A stretch of 64,000 nt of DNA from a virus: IMG/VR virus record IMGVR_UViG_3300018036_000004, positions 1 to 64,000 of that record, one strand, 5' to 3'. The first letter of the stretch is position 1; every line of letters begins with the position of its first letter. Position numbers and translations under genes: made by a program. The notes beneath the pieces were generated by a model. It did not search any database. It was not told the DNA's origin and saw only the letters and a list, made by a program, of their open reading frames with translations. Of the stretch, positions 11,785 to 50,323 are shown piece by piece.

Positions 11785-12393
11785 ATGTTAACTGCAATGG
11801 GCGATGTAATGCGTGAAGCATACAAACGAGGATGGATTACTACTAGAGATGGAAACATATCGTTGGTACAATCTAACAGAGAAACATTCTACATCACACC
11901 TAGTGGTTGGCGTAAAACTATCTTACATCCTGAACATATCTTACGCATACCTATTGTGGATAACGAGTTAGAACTTAAAGAAGGTATGAACCCTAGTGGT
12001 GAACTAGAAATGCATTGGAACTTACAACAACCCAATAAGTTTCGAACAAGAGCCGTGGTACATCTACATCCTACTTATACTATAAGTGCTATGTTAAAAG
12101 GTTTCGATTTACAGTCAATGTCTAAACACTTTCCAGAGTTGTCTAGATATACAAGAGTAGGACCTACTGTACCAGTATTGCCTGTAATCTCTACAGAGTT
12201 AGCATGGGCAACTGCAGGGAACTTTTATATAGACAGTGATGGTAAAGTTAAGTATGACATTGTAGGGCAAGCAGGACATGGTGTTTGTGCTATTGGAGGG
12301 AACCCTTGGGATGCTTTTGAGCATATAGAGCGCTTAGAACATATCTGTCAGATAGTATTGGCTAGTGGTGTTGATCCAAAAGACTTACAATAA
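11785..12393 (+). CDS. class II aldolase/adducin family protein
   Basis: GNISL, YITPSG, PSGELEMH, VVHLHP, GHGV metal-binding motifs. Confidence 0.88.
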   Translation: MLTAMGDVMREAYKRGWITTRDGNISLVQSNRETFYITPSGWRKTILHPEHILRIPIVDNELELKEGMNPSGELEMHWNLQQPNKFRTRAVVHLHPTYTISAMLKGFDLQSMSKHFPELSRYTRVGPTVPVLPVISTELAWATAGNFYIDSDGKVKYDIVGQAGHGVCAIGGNPWDAFEHIERLEHICQIVLASGVDPKDLQ

Positions 12394-12453: not shown

Positions 12454-13101
12454 ATGACTACTTATAAAACATTATTACAAGAAGTAAGAACCCTTAAAAA
12501 AGTAGCAAGCGGTGACTTTAAAAAGAAACTTTTAAGTTTACTTAATAGTGATGATCCTAGTCAGGTTAACCAAGCCCTATCTTTAAATGATACCCTAGGT
12601 ATTCTTAGTGACCAAGAAATAGGTGACTGGTCTATACCTACAGTTATTAATAGAAACCGAAACGTGGAAGAACATTGGAAAACCTTAGACAGTTTAGGTT
12701 GGGTACTTTTAAAAGCCATACCTAATCATCCTATGTGGAGTAGCCTTACAGCTTTAGGGTGCTACGGTGGCAACATTACAAGTTTACCTAGTGAAATAGG
12801 AAACCTAACAAACTTAAAAACCTTGTTCTTAAATAATAACAATCTAACAAGTCTACCTAAAGAAATAGGAAACTTAAAGAACTTGGAAACGTTGTACGTA
12901 GAAGAAAACAATCTAACAAGTATCCCTAGTTCTATTGGTAACCTAAATAAGTTAAAGTTCTTTCGGTTAAGTGATAACAATCTAACAAGTCTACCCAGTT
13001 CTAGTGGTAACCTAACTAAGTTGAGAGCGTTAACCTTAGACAATAACAAACTAACAATTGATGATGTACCAGAAAACCTTAGAAAGGTTACAAAAATCTA
13101 A
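12454..13101 (+). CDS. leucine-rich repeat protein 2
   Basis: Same N-terminus and LRR consensus as 10190. Confidence 0.93.
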
Positions 13102-13159: not shown

Positions 13160-13879
13160 ATGACTACTTATAAATCCTTACTTACAGAAGTTCGTACTCT
13201 TAAAAAGTTAGCCAGTGAAGATTTTAAAGAAAGTCTTTTAGAGTTAATTAACAGTGGAGATATACAAGACATTAACCATGCTTTATTTTTAAACGAGGAC
13301 TTAGAAATCCTTACAGATCAAGAAATTGGTGATTTACTCTTTCCACAAGTTATTAATAGTAAAAGCGGGAAGACTGTATTTGGGGCATGGCTCCAAGACG
13401 GATTAGGTTGGATGCTTTTAGAAACTTTACCTAATCACCCTATGTGGAAAAACTTAACTAAATTGAGTCTACTTGGTAGAGGACTAACAAGTTTACCAAG
13501 TTCAATAGAAAACTTAAAGAACTTGAAAAGTTTGTTCTTATATGATAACGAATTAACAAGTTTACCTAAAGAACTTGAAAACCTAAAGAACTTGTTATAC
13601 TTGAACTTAATGAATAACGACCTAAAAAGTTTACCTAGTGCAATAGGAAACTTAACTAACTTGAAAGAGTTGAACTTAAGGAATAACAAACTATCCAATT
13701 TACCAAGTTGGATAGGTAATTTAAAGAACTTGGAATACTTGAGCTTAGAGAATAACAACCTAACAAGTTTACCTAAAGAAATAGGAAACTTAACTAACTT
13801 GAAAGTCTTGAACTTAAACAATAACAGCCTAACAATAGAGGATGTTCCGGAGAACATTAGATCTATCCTTTTTGATTAG
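13160..13879 (+). CDS. leucine-rich repeat protein 3
   Basis: Same N-terminus and LRR consensus as 10190. Confidence 0.93.
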   Translation: MTTYKSLLTEVRTLKKLASEDFKESLLELINSGDIQDINHALFLNEDLEILTDQEIGDLLFPQVINSKSGKTVFGAWLQDGLGWMLLETLPNHPMWKNLTKLSLLGRGLTSLPSSIENLKNLKSLFLYDNELTSLPKELENLKNLLYLNLMNNDLKSLPSAIGNLTNLKELNLRNNKLSNLPSWIGNLKNLEYLSLENNNLTSLPKEIGNLTNLKVLNLNNNSLTIEDVPENIRSILFD

Positions 13880-13889
13880 ATAGAACTAA

Positions 13890-14117
13890 TCACTTAATAT
13901 GATTAACAGACTGGGACATTTCAACATTCCAGTCTGTTCTTAATTCTATTAGTGGATTAAACGTGGCACTACTACGCTCGGCTATAAGGGAACCTTGTGG
14001 CTTTACCATCTCTCCTACAATGTCTATAGCATCAAAGTTTATCTCGGTTTCCCTTTGATACTTTACTTTAATGTTTTCCTGTCCTAAGGCTAACCCAATC
14101 AATACATACAACAACAT
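13890..14117 (-). CDS. GltF/CglF-like adventurous gliding motility protein homologue
   Basis: Signal peptide then T.I.F...I.G...KP.G.....R....F..LI..R......M.QSV..l, the pattern of the small myxobacterial CglF/GltF proteins. Confidence 0.72.
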   Translation of the reverse strand: MLLYVLIGLALGQENIKVKYQRETEINFDAIDIVGEMVKPQGSLIAERSSATFNPLIELRTDWNVEMSQSVNHIK

Positions 14118-14270
14118 AACATACTCACTATCTGTTAAGTGGGACTAAGTACAAGGATTGTGTTTACATATATACTTATTGGATTGTATCAATAGATTAT
14201 TGTATACAATCAATAGTTGCCTTATAACAACAGTATGTGTAAGAACATACCCTATAACAGTGGAGAAATT

Positions 14271-15213: not shown

Positions 15214-15286
15214 GGGGCATTAACTCAGTTGGGAGAGTGTCACCCTTGCAAGGTGAAAGTCATCAGTTCGAATCTGATATGCTCCA
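15214..15286 (+). tRNA. tRNA-Ala(TGC)
   Basis: Cloverleaf: acceptor GGGGCAT/ATGCTCC with G3:U70; anticodon loop CTTGCAA; T-loop TTCGAAT; discriminator A; CCA not encoded. Confidence 0.95.
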
Positions 15287-15312
15287 CTTTCTTTTAAAAC
15301 ATAGGAAGACTT

Positions 15313-16214: not shown

Positions 16215-16799
16215 GTGGTGAAAACTATGTCGTATGAAGAAGCCTCTAAACTTTGGGAACTGATATTTACTAAAGACTTAGATAACATTAACCAAGCCGT
16301 TATGTTAAATGAAGTACTAAACATTATACCTTTACAAGATATACAAGACGCTCTATATCCACAATTTCTTTATTCTCAAACTCAACAACAGTTTATTAAC
16401 TTTGAAGACCTAGAAGACTTACTACTTAAAGTCTTTGACTATGTAGAACTAGACCCAGAAGACTATGACAGTATCTCTACTTTGTACAAAGACAAGTCCT
16501 TTCCTCTTACTTTGATTACAAACCCACCCTCTTTGTTAACACCTGAACCCGAACATATACCTCATCCAGATACTGTATCTGGACAAAGAGAATGGAAACA
16601 CTTAAAAGATAAGGCTTATAAATACACAGACAAACTAAATACTAACATACCACAGTTAAAAGGTATGACAGCAGAAGACTTTGTTACGGAAACACATAAA
16701 CAATATGTAAAACTAAATACTAAACTAGAAGCCTTACTGAATAAACTGGCTGAAGATCCTAACCTGTGGCAAACTACTACGGGTATCGTTTATAGATAG
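16215..16799 (+). CDS. hypothetical protein with N-terminal tag helix
   Basis: LWELIFTKDLDNINQAVMLNEVLNII. Confidence 0.65.
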   Translation: MVKTMSYEEASKLWELIFTKDLDNINQAVMLNEVLNIIPLQDIQDALYPQFLYSQTQQQFINFEDLEDLLLKVFDYVELDPEDYDSISTLYKDKSFPLTLITNPPSLLTPEPEHIPHPDTVSGQREWKHLKDKAYKYTDKLNTNIPQLKGMTAEDFVTETHKQYVKLNTKLEALLNKLAEDPNLWQTTTGIVYR

Positions 16800-26509: not shown

Positions 26510-26893
26510 TTATTTCTTAGCCATTAACTGTTTTACAGGTAGGTTATAGTTCTTACAGAAGTTATAAGCCTCTTCCGGGTTAAACTCTTGTATACAATAC
26601 CCATCCACATCTACTAACTCATAGTTCATTTCTCCAGAGTCTTGTTTAGAGAAACACATACGGTAAGCGTCACTTAAATGTTTAGGTAAAGCTTGTCCGA
26701 ATCCATACTCTGTAGGAAACTTACTATACTTTACTACAAAACCTTTTTGTAGTAGTTGTTGAATCACTTTAAAGTAAGCCTGTGTAGGAGGTGTATCAAA
26801 CACATGGTATCTACCATGGCTGTCTTCAATACATAAGTGAAAGTGTTTACTTGGTTGTTTTATATCTTCATATATCAAGTCTTTAAAAGTCAT
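26510..26893 (-). CDS. hypothetical protein (WGR-array family member)
   Basis: LLQKGF...HLSDAY...LVDVDG. Confidence 0.55.
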   Translation of the reverse strand: MTFKDLIYEDIKQPSKHFHLCIEDSHGRYHVFDTPPTQAYFKVIQQLLQKGFVVKYSKFPTEYGFGQALPKHLSDAYRMCFSKQDSGEMNYELVDVDGYCIQEFNPEEAYNFCKNYNLPVKQLMAKK

Positions 26894-31437: not shown

Positions 31438-32586
31438 TTAGATTGTACCCAATACAGGATCGATCAGACGCTTAAGTTCGAAACGATTGTCCTCGTCCAA
31501 ACCATCTGTCCAAGACATTAAGGCTTCTTTTAACAACTCTACTGAGGATACAGTGTTATCATCTTTCCAGATGTCTGTAGCATCATTACAGATGTCACAC
31601 AAACCCCGCATCGTAAGTTCACCATAGATGTCACCATCCCCAATAGACTTACGAACACCTTTGGTGATCAAACCCAACTTGTCAAAGAACTCGTCCCCAA
31701 CTTGGATGGCCAACTCAGGATACAATCCTTTTAAGATGTTTCCTTCCTCTGACCAGTTCATGTAGTGTGTCTCAATTTTAGCTCCCAATCGGTCCATGAT
31801 AGAACCATCGATTGGATTAGAACTAGTCATTCGACCCCGGGCATCACCGGACCCAACACTGTTAGCAGTACAAACGAACTGTGGTTTGTTACCAAACTGA
31901 TCTCTAAACAAAGAGACCATGTTACCATGAGGATCAAGGATACGACCAGAGATACTGTCACACAAGATACGAAACCATTCTGCTTGGGCAGGGTCTGCAC
32001 GGTCAACATCTGACAATAAGATCAAAGGAGCACGACGAACACCATCTTTACCCTCTACACCTTGTGTCACAGCATGCCATACAGCACCGTACTGCCAGTA
32101 AGAACCTGTTTCGTCTAATTTCTCTTTGTAGAACCAACCATCCAAGTCTTTACCTGGTGTAAACGACAACGCCATTGCAGGACGACGAGTCAACGCGGAG
32201 AACGCGTGTACAAAGGCGTCTTTCCCAGTACCGGGCATTCCCCAGATAAACGCGTTACGACCATTCTTCACAGCGCGTAAGGCTCTTTTAAAGGAAACTC
32301 CTGCGTCACCCTTAGTTGGGAACTGATACCCTTTCGGCATCGGTAAGCACGTATCACCTTTTACACTTGTATCTACTGGAAGCTCTACTTTACCAATCTT
32401 AACAGACAACGCTGTAGATACAGTAGTACGGGACAACTTTTTGTTAACCATACCGTGAATCTTGTCTGAAATAACAGGGGCGTTGTACTCAGCCACATAA
32501 GCGTCTGGTGTCATATTGTGAACAGTTGAAAGGTGATTGATGATTGCGTGGTGTTCAAAACCACAGATAGCACATTTAATAGTCAT
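31438..32586 (-). CDS. MoxR/CobS-like AAA+ ATPase with N-terminal C2H2 zinc finger
   Basis: CAIC...HL...H; GMPGTGKD; LILLSDVDRA; TANS.GSG..G; D...DR. Confidence 0.85.
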   Translation of the reverse strand: MTIKCAICGFEHHAIINHLSTVHNMTPDAYVAEYNAPVISDKIHGMVNKKLSRTTVSTALSVKIGKVELPVDTSVKGDTCLPMPKGYQFPTKGDAGVSFKRALRAVKNGRNAFIWGMPGTGKDAFVHAFSALTRRPAMALSFTPGKDLDGWFYKEKLDETGSYWQYGAVWHAVTQGVEGKDGVRRAPLILLSDVDRADPAQAEWFRILCDSISGRILDPHGNMVSLFRDQFGNKPQFVCTANSVGSGDARGRMTSSNPIDGSIMDRLGAKIETHYMNWSEEGNILKGLYPELAIQVGDEFFDKLGLITKGVRKSIGDGDIYGELTMRGLCDICNDATDIWKDDNTVSSVELLKEALMSWTDGLDEDNRFELKRLIDPVLGTI

Positions 32587-44360: not shown

Positions 44361-47300
44361 TTACAAACTAGAACGAACATTGAAAGTAATTACAATGTAG
44401 ATCAATGGGAACACTGGTTGGTAGTAGGCTTCCACTTCGATAGCCGTTGCATCCGTTTCAGATACTTTAGCACTAGCAGGAATAAAGGTAGCAATAATTT
44501 GGTTACCCACAAGTCCTTTAAGAGTAGCGTTTAACTGACCCTCGATTTGACTTGTAATCCCTGGTAAGAACTTAATACCAATGAAACGATCCAAAGTAGC
44601 ACGGGCTTGTCTTTGAACTTCATCTGCAATAGTAATAACAGAAGGAGTTCTAGACAAAGTGTTAGTCATGTCTGTTGTAAGACCGTGACGAACAGAAATA
44701 ACCTGTCTGTCTTGTCCAATAACAGTCACACCTCTAACGGCCACTTGGTTTTGTGCTACAGCATCTAACTTACGAGCAACTTCATCAAATCCAACAATAC
44801 GACCACGAGTCCAAGGAGTCGCAACATCAATTGTAGGACTTGCTCTGTTACCAGCCCAAGCGGCTGCTACATAAGTACCATCCACCAAGTAAGACTTAAC
44901 AGAACCATCCGCTGCAGTTAAAGACAATGTAACAATGTCCGGATACATAATTCTCAAACGAGAACGTTTAACGGCTTCTGCTATATTACCGACCTGTCTA
45001 GGTTGTGTTCCAGCACTAACACCAACAATCGCAGTTCTTTCCGCACGATAACGAATAGAACTTTGAATGTCACAATGTCTAGCCAAGTATTGGAACATTG
45101 GTAAACTATCACCCCGCATAGGAACAATGTAGTTAGGATAAATACCACCAGGTAAAGACCCTTCTACTTCATCGATAGCCTTAATGTAAGCGTCAATAGA
45201 AGCAGAGTCCGGAGTACCATCGTTGTTAATGTCTTCATCCTTTTCTACTTGTTTAATAGCAATGATTACGGCACCATTCAAGAACGCTAAGTAAGCACCT
45301 AAGGAAACAGGATTAGAAGGAGTCTTTTCACCAAACGCTTGTTCTACAGTCGCTTGTTTAGTGTAAATCTGACTACTAAAATCTTGTTTACGATAGTTGT
45401 ACGACACATAGTAGATGTCTCCTACACTAGGTTCATTTCCACCACTTGCATAAGTAGTAACAACAGCCGAGTCTCCAACATTAACACCTAAAGTATTAGA
45501 AACAATTGTTTCTACTCCCGGTAAAGTATTAATAGGAAGATTGGAGTCTGTTGTAACAACCTTACGAAGTTTGAAAGTGAAACTTTCACCTGTAGGATAA
45601 CTAGCGCCACCAGGTCTTGGTAAAACAGTAAAAGTCAAACCAGTAACTAAGTCACGATAGGTTTGTCCAACATTACCATCTTGTCCATTACCACTATTAA
45701 GTACAGAAGTATTAGCTGAACCCGAACCGTCAATAGGATCAGAAGATGTAACATAGAAACCATCTATGGATGGTTCACCAACATTACCTTCTCCACCAGT
45801 AACACCTAATCCAGTACCAGGTCTTGTTACAGAGTCTACAGCGGCTTCTACAATAGCAATAGAACTAGAAGTTCCAACACCAGAAGTACCTAAACTTTGT
45901 AAGTACAAGAACTCTCCACCAACACTATCACGAATAGTTTTAGCAATACCCACTTTAGTAAAGTAAGCAGACGCACCACCATCTGCCCAGTCGATTAAGT
46001 GCAATGCTATAGACGCTTGGTCGTGTGCCAAAAGAGCACTAACCAATGTTTCCACTTCTACAACAGTTCTAAATACTTGTTCACCGGTATTGAATCCAAG
46101 TGTGTCGTTAGCAGAACCATTACCAATAGTAATAGAAGCATCTGAACTAGAACTAGCACCACGGAAACGGATACCCACACCTTCTTGCATTACCAATCCA
46201 CTAGCCAAACCTTGAGCAACCATGGCCGCTTGGATTTGGTTTAAGACTGTATTCGCTGTACCAATAGGACCTAAAGGAACATCTGCAGATGTTGTAATAG
46301 CACCGCCAGTACCGTCTGTAAACTCAATAGTTACAGGTACACCTTCGAAAGTAAACTTAAAGATGTTACTTTGTGGGTTAGTTGAACTTGGACCATAGAA
46401 AGTTACTAAAGGTTGTCCACTACCGTCTTGTCCACCTTCAAGTCCAATGTGTGAACTAATAGTAGGTTCCATAACTGTACCACGAATACCACTAACACCA
46501 ATTTCGTTAGAAGTAAGACCACAGTTATTGTTTCCACTACCACCTAAGACTTGAATAAAGGCTTGGTCTTGAACATATTGTCCATCCATAGAACCAGATT
46601 TTCCAGGTACAAGGCGGTTACGAAGAATAAGTCTATCATAACGCTTTTGTCCTGAGGCACCTGTAAGTGAGAACACACGAGCAATTTTACCATTAACAAG
46701 TTTGGCTTGTCCACCTTGTGCACTGTCAGTATCGAAACCTGCTAACACAGCAAAGTCACGAGCAGGAGTTCCATTAGTTACAAACTCCAAGAAACCACCG
46801 TCAGTATCTGTATGATCTGGAATCAAACTAAATACTAATCTTCCACTAGTATCGGCTTCTACTGTAATAATACAGGAAAGACCCGCTACACCAACTGCTG
46901 TGTTTACTGCAGTTTGAATAGCAGATACTAAGTCACTTACAGAACCATAAGTACTTGCGGGAATTGTGACAGAGATTGGAACAGAACCTTTAACGGAACC
47001 AGTGTAGTTAAGTTCAATTTGATCAAACTCACTCGCACTGATAACAGTAGGAGCCAAGAACTGTGTTACTCCAGTAATACTAGGAGCAGCATCTGGATTG
47101 TACAAGTGGAATACAGAAGTAGCATCGAAAGTACCACCATCAAGTGTTAACACACCATTAACAGAGGCTGTAACAGTTCTAACTGTAGTACTTACACCAG
47201 TACCTCCTGTACACACAAGTTGCCAGCCTGCATACAGATTATCTGTATCACAAGGCATTTCCGAAGCGGGAATTGTAAGTGTGTTAAGACCACCCGCACT

Positions 47301-49511
47301 CGCTAATGCAAAGATACCTAAGGTGGCTTGGTTAATAGCTAAAGCATAGTAACCAACATCTACAGTACCTGTAGCGATACAAGCCATAATAAGTTTACCA
47401 TCAACAATAAACTCTAAGTTCTTATTAGTTTCGTCTACTACATAAGTAGTGTATCCACTAGAGGCTGTATACACAATCTCATTACTCACAAGTTGTGCGT
47501 GTATACCGCAACCTGCACCTGTTGGATCACTTAAGTCCACAAAGCCACCAGTAACAGTAGACCCTTCAAACTCTACATCAAAATGGTCAGAACCATTAGA
47601 GATAAGATAGTAAGGACCTGTACCTGGTACAGTGTATTTAGCCAATGTTGCATCTTGACTGTCGAATGTAACAGTTACATCTTCTTCTACTGAACCTTGA
47701 TAGAAGTTAGTATTAAAAGGTGTTTCTACACGACAATCAGGAAGTCTTTCTGTACCACTTGGAAACTGTAATTCGATAGTAGCCAACCCACTGGACTTAG
47801 ATCCAAATTGTGGTGTTACTAAGGCATTACTGTTTTCGTCTGTGATAGTATAAGTACCAACACCACTTGCTCCAGCCGTATTACTAACAATAGAGTACTC
47901 TAGGTCTACTAATGTGTTGTAATAGAATGTAGCGTATACTGTGGCCCCTACAGGTACTGCTTGTGCTAAAGTGATAGTATTGGTTTCACTATCAACCTTA
48001 GTTACTTGTACACGACCACGATTAACAGCGTCTTCTACAGAGAATCCCCAATAAGCCCAAACCAGGTCTGGTCTATTGGTTGGAAGATCGTAACGACCAT
48101 TAGATACTTTGTTGTATGTATCAGAAGACAGAGGAGTATTTCTACCATTACCCGTTGTGGCTTGTAAAGGTAAAGTGAACTCTTTACGACCTTCTACTGC
48201 AGGAGAAGTTGCTGTATTTACAACGGCTGTACATTCTGCTAAGTATTGTCTAACATCTACCAAAGAAGAGGTAACTTGTGTTCCATCGAAGAAGTTGTAA
48301 CCCAAAGTGTGAACACCAGACTCAACAGTACTAGCAGTACCCCAAAGGATTAAGTCGTCCTTTAGAATAAAGTCCGCACCGGCTGTGTAATCCTGACGAT
48401 CTGGTGTAATACCACATTGTGTGATTTGAGTAACACCACGATGTGCCAGATAATCAAAAGTGTCCTGCCAAGAGTTAAAGTAATACTGACAAGATACAGT
48501 ATCTCCAACCTTTGGAGCGAAAGGTAAAGTAATAGCACCAGATTGTCCATCTACTGAAGTAGGGATTACTTGGATACCGTTTACTTTAACTGTTACATCC
48601 GCGGGATCTGTTGAGGTAATACCACCATTAGAACCATCTACGATAGGTCTTTGGAATGTGTAGAACACATTATTTCTTGGAGTAGTTTGTCCTAGAGTAA
48701 GTCCTAATGTAGTATTAGCAGACCCGTTAAGGATTTCAATACTATTATCAGCACTTAATACTACAACAGTGTCTCCAAAGTTATTAACTGTAGTAGAACC
48801 ACTTAAAGAAGTACTACCACTACCACCATTAATAAAAGCAGCGATTTGAGCGGCTGTCCAAGGAGCGCCCGCGGCACTTGGAAGAATTGTAATGTCCAAA
48901 GTAGTTTGGTTATCTACCAAGATTTTAAGAGTGTCGTTTACACCTTGTGTGATTACAAAAGGTTCACCTTTTGCTCCGTAAATAATAGGTGCTTGGGATG
49001 TAACTTGTTCAGACAAGTTATCCGTAATCAAAGTGTCTGTTCTATTAAAGAAGTAAGTAACTCTTACTTCGTCACCTAAACTAGGAGAAGTAGAAAGTTT
49101 TAAAATACCTTTAGAACCGTCAATAGCCAGAACTACTACGGGTTCATTATTAATAGTTACAGAAACACTACCGGTATCTTTTGCAGTAGTTCCTGAACCG
49201 TCTCCTGTTACAATAGGAAAATGTTTAACTTGAATACGATCCAAGTTACCATCAAAAGCACCTAAAGTTACATTACCAGTTTGGGAAATACTAACAACAG
49301 CACGACCTGTTTCATCTTCTTGAACAATGCGTTGGTCTACTGAAGAAGAAGAACCACGAACAAGTTCAAGTTGATTTTGTGTTAAGATTTCAGAGCCCGT
49401 TCCTACCAATAAAGGAATACGGACATTAGAGGCCACACCTTGTAAAGGGTCCTCAAAGTTTGTTTGGGTATACACACCGGGAGGGGCGTATATAGAACCT
49501 GGGAAAGTCAT
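44361..49511 (-). CDS. contractile tail sheath protein (very large)
   Basis: N-terminal APPGVY; C-terminal sheath domain (VRHGLTT, LDRFIG, V...YQPVFPLIYI.ITF). Confidence 0.88.
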   Translation of the reverse strand: MTFPGSIYAPPGVYTQTNFEDPLQGVASNVRIPLLVGTGSEILTQNQLELVRGSSSSVDQRIVQEDETGRAVVSISQTGNVTLGAFDGNLDRIQVKHFPIVTGDGSGTTAKDTGSVSVTINNEPVVVLAIDGSKGILKLSTSPSLGDEVRVTYFFNRTDTLITDNLSEQVTSQAPIIYGAKGEPFVITQGVNDTLKILVDNQTTLDITILPSAAGAPWTAAQIAAFINGGSGSTSLSGSTTVNNFGDTVVVLSADNSIEILNGSANTTLGLTLGQTTPRNNVFYTFQRPIVDGSNGGITSTDPADVTVKVNGIQVIPTSVDGQSGAITLPFAPKVGDTVSCQYYFNSWQDTFDYLAHRGVTQITQCGITPDRQDYTAGADFILKDDLILWGTASTVESGVHTLGYNFFDGTQVTSSLVDVRQYLAECTAVVNTATSPAVEGRKEFTLPLQATTGNGRNTPLSSDTYNKVSNGRYDLPTNRPDLVWAYWGFSVEDAVNRGRVQVTKVDSETNTITLAQAVPVGATVYATFYYNTLVDLEYSIVSNTAGASGVGTYTITDENSNALVTPQFGSKSSGLATIELQFPSGTERLPDCRVETPFNTNFYQGSVEEDVTVTFDSQDATLAKYTVPGTGPYYLISNGSDHFDVEFEGSTVTGGFVDLSDPTGAGCGIHAQLVSNEIVYTASSGYTTYVVDETNKNLEFIVDGKLIMACIATGTVDVGYYALAINQATLGIFALASAGGLNTLTIPASEMPCDTDNLYAGWQLVCTGGTGVSTTVRTVTASVNGVLTLDGGTFDATSVFHLYNPDAAPSITGVTQFLAPTVISASEFDQIELNYTGSVKGSVPISVTIPASTYGSVSDLVSAIQTAVNTAVGVAGLSCIITVEADTSGRLVFSLIPDHTDTDGGFLEFVTNGTPARDFAVLAGFDTDSAQGGQAKLVNGKIARVFSLTGASGQKRYDRLILRNRLVPGKSGSMDGQYVQDQAFIQVLGGSGNNNCGLTSNEIGVSGIRGTVMEPTISSHIGLEGGQDGSGQPLVTFYGPSSTNPQSNIFKFTFEGVPVTIEFTDGTGGAITTSADVPLGPIGTANTVLNQIQAAMVAQGLASGLVMQEGVGIRFRGASSSSDASITIGNGSANDTLGFNTGEQVFRTVVEVETLVSALLAHDQASIALHLIDWADGGASAYFTKVGIAKTIRDSVGGEFLYLQSLGTSGVGTSSSIAIVEAAVDSVTRPGTGLGVTGGEGNVGEPSIDGFYVTSSDPIDGSGSANTSVLNSGNGQDGNVGQTYRDLVTGLTFTVLPRPGGASYPTGESFTFKLRKVVTTDSNLPINTLPGVETIVSNTLGVNVGDSAVVTTYASGGNEPSVGDIYYVSYNYRKQDFSSQIYTKQATVEQAFGEKTPSNPVSLGAYLAFLNGAVIIAIKQVEKDEDINNDGTPDSASIDAYIKAIDEVEGSLPGGIYPNYIVPMRGDSLPMFQYLARHCDIQSSIRYRAERTAIVGVSAGTQPRQVGNIAEAVKRSRLRIMYPDIVTLSLTAADGSVKSYLVDGTYVAAAWAGNRASPTIDVATPWTRGRIVGFDEVARKLDAVAQNQVAVRGVTVIGQDRQVISVRHGLTTDMTNTLSRTPSVITIADEVQRQARATLDRFIGIKFLPGITSQIEGQLNATLKGLVGNQIIATFIPASAKVSETDATAIEVEAYYQPVFPLIYIVITFNVRSSL

Positions 49512-50070: not shown

Positions 50071-50323
50071 TAGTATCCTCGTCCAGAAACCACTGATTAT
50101 TTTTGTATACAATCCAAGTACAATCACTCTCAAAAACATCTAAATGAATCTTGTTCATAAGTGTTCGAGTAATACCTATCGTGTGTATAGAACTATTGTC
50201 CATACTAAGTTGAAAGTGTAAGTTATCCGCAACCTTTTCGGCTTTATAGTAATCCCTTAAAGCACATACAATTATAGGTTTAGAATGTTCGTTTGATGTA
50301 TACCAAAGTAAATAAACTTTCAT
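50063..50323 (-). CDS. hypothetical protein
   Basis: GAGGA RBS. Confidence 0.55.
   Translation of the reverse strand: MKVYLLWYTSNEHSKPIIVCALRDYYKAEKVADNLHFQLSMDNSSIHTIGITRTLMNKIHLDVFESDCTWIVYKNNQWFLDEDTNA

What the first reader, a model, noticed from the sequence alone, without database searches (positions are those of the whole stretch)
13890..14117. Phage-encoded GltF/CglF gliding-motility homologue
Seen: a lone minus-strand 75-aa secreted-type protein, ...RETEINFDAIDIVGEMVKPQGSLIAERSSATFNPLIELRTDWNVEMSQSVNHIK. Established: CglF/GltF is a small envelope component of the Agl-Glt gliding machinery in Myxococcus, with homologues in Bdellovibrio-like predators; this is a match from my recollection of the motif. 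Inference: it points to the host group, and the phage may modulate motility or mask an outer-membrane receptor (superinfection exclusion).
Basis: partly seen in the sequence, partly recalled or inferred. Interest (0 to 1): 0.75.

Follow-up and report, generated by a model that had tools for sequence, protein, structure and literature searches.

The report
Phage-borne copy of gliding-machine protein GltF
A large uncultured marine T4-like phage carries, alone and under strong selection, its own exported copy of GltF, a small periplasmic subunit of the myxobacterial Glt gliding-type envelope machine, which points to marine Myxococcota hosts and to the phage acting on that machine.

Summary
Window 13890-14117 (-) is a real 75-aa gene and the only homologue-supported minus-strand gene in a 24-kb plus-strand block. 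The closest cellular homologues (57-66% identical, marine Myxococcota MAGs) score below it too, yet sit exactly between gltE and gltG in a complete gltA/B-C-D-E-F-G-H module.

The record is a T4-like myovirus with TerL, tail sheath, UvsX, Dda helicase, RNR and clamp loader. It carries no other glt gene, and neither do four 94-100% complete gltF-bearing phages. At least 30 further IMG/VR phage contigs carry gltF alone, in at least four unrelated gene contexts.

GltF is 52-63% identical between phages whose UvsX is only 25-30% identical. Phage-phage dN/dS is 0.00-0.10, and all residues invariant in both sets are kept. The tree places this copy beside low-GC marine Myxococcota and other phage clades among high-GC ones, implying repeated capture.

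AF2 gives an extended, partner-dependent peptide. My best reading is an exported mimic that occupies GltF's site in the host machine. Whether it interferes or maintains is unresolved.

This scan already noted phage GltF in at least 51 other genomes. I found no publication.

The parts
13890..14117 (-). gltF/cglF homologue, 75 codons plus stop
   Evidence: ORF. NF033764 hit at E 4.1e-11. 84 homologues. 57% identical to the gltF-slot gene of MAG locus L005.
14079..14117 (-). Short N-terminal leader (residues 1-13): hydrophobic run, then an A-L-G|Q cleavage-like site. Presumed Sec signal peptide.
   Evidence: Read directly. All phage and cellular homologues have a hydrophobic leader ending in A-x-[AG] before Q/D/E. 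About two-thirds of phage leaders lack K/R and are 12-16 aa, against 22-30 aa with R/K in cells. Export itself is inferred.
13893..14078 (-). Conserved mature core (residues 14-75). Motifs: Y..TEI[DN]F, GE.VKPQG, FNPLI.LR, and a C-terminal helix E..(Q)SV..IK.
   Evidence: Invariant columns in alignments A1/A2. Phage and cellular column entropies correlate at rho 0.75. AF2 gives an extended chain with a helix at 64-74.
14118..14216 (.). AT-rich divergent intergenic region between gltF and the next plus-strand ORF. Holds the palindrome TTGTATACAA (14200-14209). Presumed promoter region.
   Evidence: Sequence. The palindrome occurs 3 times in the window against 0.23 expected. The sigma-70 consensus scan found nothing convincing here. 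Assignment is inferred.

Best explanation
The ORF is a host-derived copy of gltF/cglF, a small periplasmic subunit of the envelope-spanning Glt (Agl-Glt/Nfs-type) machine of Myxococcota. A large T4-like phage captured it and keeps it without any other glt gene. Shown: homology, host-module synteny of the cellular relatives, the solitary state in phages, repeated capture, and very strong purifying selection on the same residues as in cells. Inferred: during infection the protein is exported through Sec by its short leader. As an extended, partner-dependent peptide it then occupies the site that host GltF uses on its periplasmic partners (GltD/E/G-type proteins), giving the phage control of the machine. 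I favour interference, at about 55:45 over maintenance. An excess of one connector subunit, or a variant of it, would uncouple the complex. That would stall surface transport or gliding, save proton-motive force, or hide a surface receptor (superinfection exclusion). This parallels phage proteins that block type IV pili.
For: - Homology: NF033764 hit at E 4.1e-11 over profile positions 27-87 of 88.
- Host synteny: cellular homologues 57-66% identical lie in the order OMP-OMP-GltC-TPR(GltD position)-GltE-[GltF]-GltG-CglE/GltH.
- Phage identity: IMG/VR virus record of 102 kb with tail sheath, UvsX, TerL, Dda helicase, RNR, PhoH, clamp loader and sliding clamp.
- Solitary state: BLAST of L005 Glt proteins finds only GltF in G000 and in 30 viral loci. 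The GltG, CglE and GltC models find nothing in G000 or in four 94-100% complete gltF phages, although they score E 1e-27 to 1e-77 on L005.
- Other carriers are real phages: terminase and portal genes lie beside gltF in L071 and L088.
- Diverse contexts: at least 4 synteny groups, none sharing neighbours with G000.
- UvsX is 25-30% identical between these phages, against 52-63% for GltF.
- Selection: dN/dS is 0.00-0.10 in every unsaturated phage pair.
- Entropy profiles of phage and cellular copies correlate at rho 0.75, and all residues invariant in both sets are retained.
- Tree: the window plus 7 phage rows form a clade (SH-aLRT 98) that joins the 43-46% GC MAG sequences L002-L005 (91; 94 with phage L068 added). 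Other phage clades nest inside high-GC cellular clades, and phage GC tracks that of the neighbouring cellular clade.
- Structure: AF2 pLDDT 75 but pTM 0.22, an extended chain with one C-terminal helix, as expected for a peptide that folds on a partner.
- Literature: GltF (MXAN_4868, 89 aa) has a signal peptide, is essential for gliding, localises to focal-adhesion clusters, and GltD clustering depends on it (PMC3169522; PMC4488436).
- Hint of altered function in phages: Glu36 is present in 47/47 cellular sequences but only 14/30 phage sequences, and Met67 in 47/47 against 16/30.
Against: - No experiment or co-fold shows binding to any Glt partner.
- Export is inferred from a leader that is short and lacks a basic n-region.
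- The score is below NCBIfam's equivalog cut-off (42.8 against 90 bits).
- The window's own copy keeps Glu36 and Met67, so it looks like a faithful subunit. That fits maintenance as well as interference.
- No independent host link was found: no CRISPR-type matches in 31 related MAGs over the first 60 kb of the window.
- In the nearest MAGs the CglB model finds nothing and the GltJ model matches only its C-terminal domain. The host machine may therefore not be a motility device.
- The record is only about 58% complete.
- The Glu36 and Met67 statistics are not corrected for phylogeny.
Confidence: 0.68

Rival explanations
1. Maintenance (psbA-like). The phage supplies a fully functional GltF to keep the host's Glt machine running after host gene expression is shut off. 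GltF would be the labile or limiting subunit, so the infected cell keeps moving or keeps its envelope function until lysis.
For: The window's copy keeps every residue invariant in cells, including Glu36 and Met67. The constraint profile matches the cellular one (rho 0.75). dN/dS is 0.00-0.10. Phage clades track host clades, as expected if the protein must fit host partners.
Against: Nothing is known about GltF turnover. Half of the phage copies have lost Glu36 or Met67, both invariant in cells, which argues against simple equivalence across the family. A single 60-residue connector is an odd choice of bottleneck among at least 8 module genes. No other glt gene was ever co-captured.
Confidence: 0.27
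2. The protein has been re-purposed for a phage-specific job unrelated to the host Glt machine. Examples would be an envelope or lysis accessory (spanin-like), or a periplasmic factor aiding DNA entry or virion release.
For: It is a small exported protein. In several phage groups the gene sits just upstream of terminase and portal genes. An earlier scan note places one copy in a lysis-like cassette (e1-5688861, not tested here). Glu36 and Met67 are relaxed in phages.
Against: The residues under constraint are the same as in cellular GltF, and phage clades follow host GltF clades. That is hard to explain unless host partners are still the target. There is no lipobox or C-terminal transmembrane segment as in spanins. 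Contexts differ between phage groups.
Confidence: 0.04
3. Artefact. The contig is cellular or chimeric, or the gene is a neutral, recently acquired passenger with no role.
For: The record is an uncultured, incomplete (58%) metagenomic contig. The gene is antisense to its neighbours, like a recent insertion.
Against: Phage hallmark genes lie on both sides along the whole 102 kb. GC is 37% against 43-70% in cellular glt loci. The same solitary gene occurs in at least 30 other phage contigs, including DTR-bounded and 94-100% complete genomes. dN/dS of 0.00-0.10 excludes neutrality.
Confidence: 0.01

Closest known systems
GltF = CglF of Myxococcus xanthus (MXAN_4868; NCBIfam NF033764; Luciano et al. 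2011, PMC3169522)
   Same: Same family by profile (E 4e-11). Similar size (75 against 89 aa). N-terminal export leader and no Pfam domain. The same conserved core is found in positional orthologues from MAGs.
   Different: Encoded by a phage, alone, outside any glt cluster. The leader is shortened to about 13 aa with no basic residue. It scores below the equivalog cut-off. It has the unusual substitutions D27N and F63W. Its closest cellular kin are uncultured low-GC marine Myxococcota, not Myxococcales.
Phage-encoded inhibitors of host surface-motility machines, such as Tip of phage D3112 and Aqs1 of DMS3, which block the type IV pilus ATPase PilB in Pseudomonas (from my own knowledge, not checked here)
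   Same: A small phage protein aimed at a host motility or surface machine. The plausible pay-off is superinfection exclusion or host takeover.
   Different: Those inhibitors are not homologues of a machine subunit and act in the cytoplasm. Here the phage carries a faithful copy of a periplasmic subunit, and inhibition is only inferred.
Cyanophage psbA/psbD and similar host-derived subunit genes ('auxiliary' genes)
   Same: One subunit of a multi-protein host machine is captured repeatedly from hosts, kept under purifying selection, and tracks host lineages.
   Different: This is not a metabolic enzyme or reaction-centre protein but a 60-residue connector of an envelope machine. Whether it sustains or subverts the machine is unknown.

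Membership tests
GltF/CglF (NCBIfam NF033764) | Significant profile match over most of the model | tested here: met
   E 4.1e-11, 42.8 bits, profile positions 27-87 of 88. The same result came from six-frame search of the record.
GltF/CglF (NCBIfam NF033764) | Score above the curated equivalog cut-off (90 bits) | tested here: not met
   42.8 bits. The gltF-slot genes of Myxococcota MAGs also fail it: 48-50 bits, and 67.7 bits for L056. The cut-off therefore reflects the model's Myxococcales training set rather than non-membership.
GltF/CglF (NCBIfam NF033764) | Small (about 75-90 aa) exported protein with an N-terminal signal peptide and no other domain | tested here: inconclusive
   75 aa with no Pfam domain. 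Hydrophobic leader plus an A-L-G|Q site. The leader is very short and uncharged, and no predictor or export assay was available.
GltF/CglF (NCBIfam NF033764) | Family-invariant core residues (Y20, T24-E25-I26, F28, G35, P40, F53-N54-P55, I57, R60, E66, S70) | tested here: met
   All are present in the window ORF. E36 and M67, invariant in cells, are also present. D27, which is 100% in cells, is N here.
GltF/CglF (NCBIfam NF033764) | Gene located between gltE and gltG within a glt/nfs-type cluster | tested here: not met
   The phage gene is solitary and flanked by LRR-protein and unknown genes. The feature is met by its closest cellular homologues. The family assignment therefore rests on homology to positional orthologues.
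GltF/CglF (NCBIfam NF033764) | Required for gliding, localises to focal-adhesion complexes, and is needed for GltD clustering | not testable with these tools
   Known for M. xanthus GltF (PMC3169522).

The most novel reading that the evidence does not exclude
Many unrelated lineages of large marine and freshwater phages have independently captured one connector subunit (GltF) of the Glt envelope machine and use it as a periplasmic molecular mimic to switch that machine off or re-tune it. This would be a previously unreported class of phage takeover or superinfection-exclusion factor acting on gliding-type machinery. It would also serve as a sequence marker assigning dozens of orphan jumbo and T4-like phages to uncultured aquatic Myxococcota hosts.
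Probability: 0.4. Interest if true: 0.78.

Novelty: new variant of a known kind. Interest (0 to 1): 0.62.

Why it matters
GltF is one of the least understood parts of the myxobacterial focal-adhesion gliding motor. No structure or partner map exists: there were no PDB relatives and the monomer model is non-globular.

- Phages have in effect run a natural mutagenesis experiment on it. The residues they always keep, and the two cell-invariant residues they can lose (Glu36, Met67), nominate the binding surfaces.
- A solitary, strongly selected phage copy makes 'what does GltF bind?' testable with a 60-residue peptide.
- Ecologically, the gene links a set of very large uncultured aquatic phages to uncultured Myxococcota, for which almost no phages are known.
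- It also suggests that phages manipulate gliding-type surface machinery, as they do pili.
- I found no publication reporting this.
- The scan itself has flagged the same thing on at least 51 other genomes, so this window is one more instance, not a first sighting.

Tried and rejected
- Pfam gave no hit and PHROGs only noise.
- PDB sequence search with the family profile gave no relative.
- I did not run a fold search, because pTM 0.22 would give meaningless matches.
I recovered contexts through the search for related loci instead.
- The metagenome scan returned no relatives above 71% identity. dN/dS for the window's own gene is therefore saturated (pS 0.7-1.0), and selection had to be shown on other phage pairs.
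- Host link by short DNA matches: 60 kb of the window against 31 MAGs gave only gltF itself, the tRNA-Ala, an aldolase N-terminus and a 32-nt match. That 32-nt match lies in coding DNA without repeats and without protein-level support, so it is not a CRISPR spacer.
- GTDB names of the MAGs are withheld. Submitter labels are coarse and partly wrong.
- The promoter and terminator consensus scan found nothing useful.
- Fused long proteins with a GltF-like segment were checked for partner domains. Only one (VIT-VWA) had any, so there is no Rosetta-stone hint.
- The CglB and TraA models found nothing in the nearest MAGs, but they also rang in no control genome, so this is uninformative.

Full report
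**1. Observation**

The ORF at 13890..14117 (-) exists exactly as quoted: 75 aa with an ATG start. The open frame is only 84 codons, and the nine codons upstream hold no start codon, so the short N-terminus is real. Every ORF of 150 aa or more from 403 to 24439 is on the plus strand. This makes it the lone homologue-supported antisense gene in the block. It converges on an LRR-protein gene with a 10-bp gap and diverges from the next gene across about 100 bp of AT-rich DNA.

**2. Is it GltF/CglF?**

- Pfam and PHROGs give nothing.
- NCBIfam NF033764 (gliding_CglF) matches at E 4.1e-11 and 42.8 bits, over model positions 27-87 of 88. This is below the 90-bit equivalog cut-off.
- The protein has 84 homologues of 42-92 aa in the 5.8-billion-protein set, and 273 cluster representatives in the exhaustive search.
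- In GTDB genomes 57 loci encode relatives.
- In MAG locus L005 (57% identical) the homologue lies in the order OM beta-barrel, OM beta-barrel, GltC (E 1e-73), a 1076-aa TPR protein in the GltD position, GltE (4e-28), [homologue], GltG (1e-77), CglE/GltH (1e-27).
- The same neighbours recur across L002-L052.
- These positional gltF genes also score under the cut-off (48-68 bits). The cut-off is therefore lineage-bound, and the family assignment is sound.
- Reference facts on M. xanthus GltF: 89 aa, signal peptide, no domain, essential for gliding, located at focal-adhesion clusters, and required for GltD clustering. The gene is confined to Myxococcales and Bdellovibrionales (PMC3169522; PMC4488436).

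**3. Is it phage-borne, and is it alone?**

- The window is part of a 102,476-bp IMG/VR record with CheckV completeness 58%.
- The record carries a tail-sheath domain, UvsX-like recombinase, terminase large subunit, Dda-like helicase, RNR, PhoH, clamp loader and sliding clamp.
- GC is 37%, against 43-70% for cellular glt loci.
- BLAST with the six L005 Glt proteins finds only GltF in the whole record and in 30 IMG/VR loci.
- The GltG, CglE and GltC models find nothing in this record or in four gltF-carrying phage genomes that are 94-100% complete, one of them with terminal repeats. The same models score strongly on L005.
- The other carriers are real phages. Terminase and portal genes lie beside gltF in L071 and L088, and nucleotide-metabolism genes flank it in L061.

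**4. Evolution**

- The flanks of gltF fall into at least four synteny groups, none of which shares neighbours with this phage.
- UvsX of this phage is only 25-30% identical to that of the other carriers. GltF is 52-63% identical.
- The tree has 64 columns, so resolution is limited. The window groups with seven phage sequences (SH-aLRT 98). That clade joins the four 43-46% GC marine MAG sequences L002-L005 (91; 94 with phage L068 added).
- Phage clade L073/L078/L083 (51-57% GC) and L087/L088 nest within high-GC cellular clades. The phage/cell labelling as a whole needs at least 2 changes on starred branches and 8 by parsimony.
- This pattern implies repeated host-to-phage capture, or phage-to-phage spread with host tracking.
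- dN/dS among phage copies is 0.00-0.10 wherever dS is unsaturated. For example, L063 and L111 have 60 identical residues at pS 0.47.
- Column entropies of the phage and cellular sets correlate (rho 0.75), and every residue invariant in both is kept.
- There are two exceptions. Glu36 (47/47 in cells) survives in 14/30 phage sequences (Fisher p 1e-8, uncorrected for phylogeny). Met67 (47/47 in cells) survives in 16/30.
- This window keeps both residues, but carries D27N (unique to it) and F63W.

**5. Anatomy and mechanism**

- All homologues have a hydrophobic leader ending in A-x-[AG] before Q/D/E.
- About two-thirds of phage leaders, including this one, are 12-16 aa without K/R. Cellular leaders are 22-30 aa with R/K.
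- AF2 with 122 sequences gives pLDDT 75 but pTM 0.22. The model is an extended chain with one C-terminal helix at residues 64-74. That is the signature of a peptide that folds on partners.
- There are no PDB relatives.
- I therefore read it as an exported mimic that takes GltF's place on periplasmic Glt partners.
- The direction of the effect is inferred. The faithful core fits maintenance. Three things tilt me slightly (55:45) to interference: the loss of cell-invariant residues in half the phage copies, the solitary capture of a connector subunit, and the analogy with phage inhibitors of pili.

**6. Host machine caveat**

The nearest MAGs have a full A/B-C-D-E-F-G-H module. However, the GltJ model matches only its C-terminal domain there, and the CglB model finds nothing. 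The CglB result is uninformative, because that model rang in no control genome. The target may be a Glt/Nfs-type envelope machine rather than a proven gliding motor.

**7. Host link**

Only the GltF phylogeny and a 59-146-nt DNA similarity of gltF itself link phage and host. No CRISPR-type match was found.

**8. Prior knowledge**

Full-text searches found no report of phage-borne glt or cglF genes, including a 2026 preprint on myxobacterial viruses. The scan's own notes list the same finding on at least 51 other genomes. My results agree with them and were obtained independently.

**9. Tool limitation**

**10. Verdict**

This is a new, phage-borne and solitary variant of a known protein family. 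The mechanism is inferred. Interest is moderate to high.

Noticed in passing
window 12454-13101 (+), 13160-13879 (+), also 16215-16799 (+): Two adjacent paralogous LRR proteins (Pfam LRR_14/LRR_4/LRR_8) share an about 60-aa N-terminal module. A similar N-terminal module heads the non-LRR ORF at 16215-16799. They lie immediately next to gltF.
   Followed up: partly
window 44361-49511 (-): A 1716-aa protein whose last about 350 residues match tail sheath (phrog_2839, E 4e-27). This is an unusually long N-terminal extension for a sheath protein.
   Followed up: no
window 14200-14209, 26588-26597, 50103-50112: The perfect palindrome TTGTATACAA occurs three times against 0.23 expected. One copy lies in the divergent region upstream of gltF. 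It may be a phage regulatory site.
   Followed up: no
window 15214-15287 (+): A phage tRNA-Ala (TGC) lies 1.1 kb from gltF. It is 75-78% identical to tRNA genes in two of the Myxococcota MAGs searched, which is not diagnostic.
   Followed up: partly
L053-L058; proteins P0132, P0147, P0151, P0153, P0212: A GltF-like segment is embedded near the C-terminal third of 670-1400-aa cellular proteins with no other recognised domain. In P0212 it follows VIT and VWA domains. Their function and their relation to the Glt machine are unknown.
   Followed up: partly
phage loci L062, L065, L069, L070, L072-L075, L077-L079, L083, L085, L091-L093: In these phage copies the Glu after the invariant Gly (Glu36, 47/47 in cells) is replaced by Q/A/S/V/M/I/T. 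Met67 is often I or L. This may mark a functionally altered, perhaps inhibitory, subclass.
   Followed up: partly
window 11785-12393 (+); L117: A class II aldolase/adducin-family gene (Pfam PF00596). Its first 21 residues are 90% identical to a stretch in MAG G003. It may be a second host-derived gene.
   Followed up: partly
L006, L012, L015, L018-L020, L023, L032, L037, L048, L052: MAGs labelled Enterobacterales, Enterobacteriaceae or Klebsiella pneumoniae by submitters have 60-70% GC and most carry glt-cluster genes beside the gltF homologue. The labels look like placeholders or errors.
   Followed up: no
window 31438-32586 (-): A 382-aa protein with a partial match to phrog_249 'porphyrin biosynthesis' (E 1e-17). 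It is a possible auxiliary metabolic gene.
   Followed up: no
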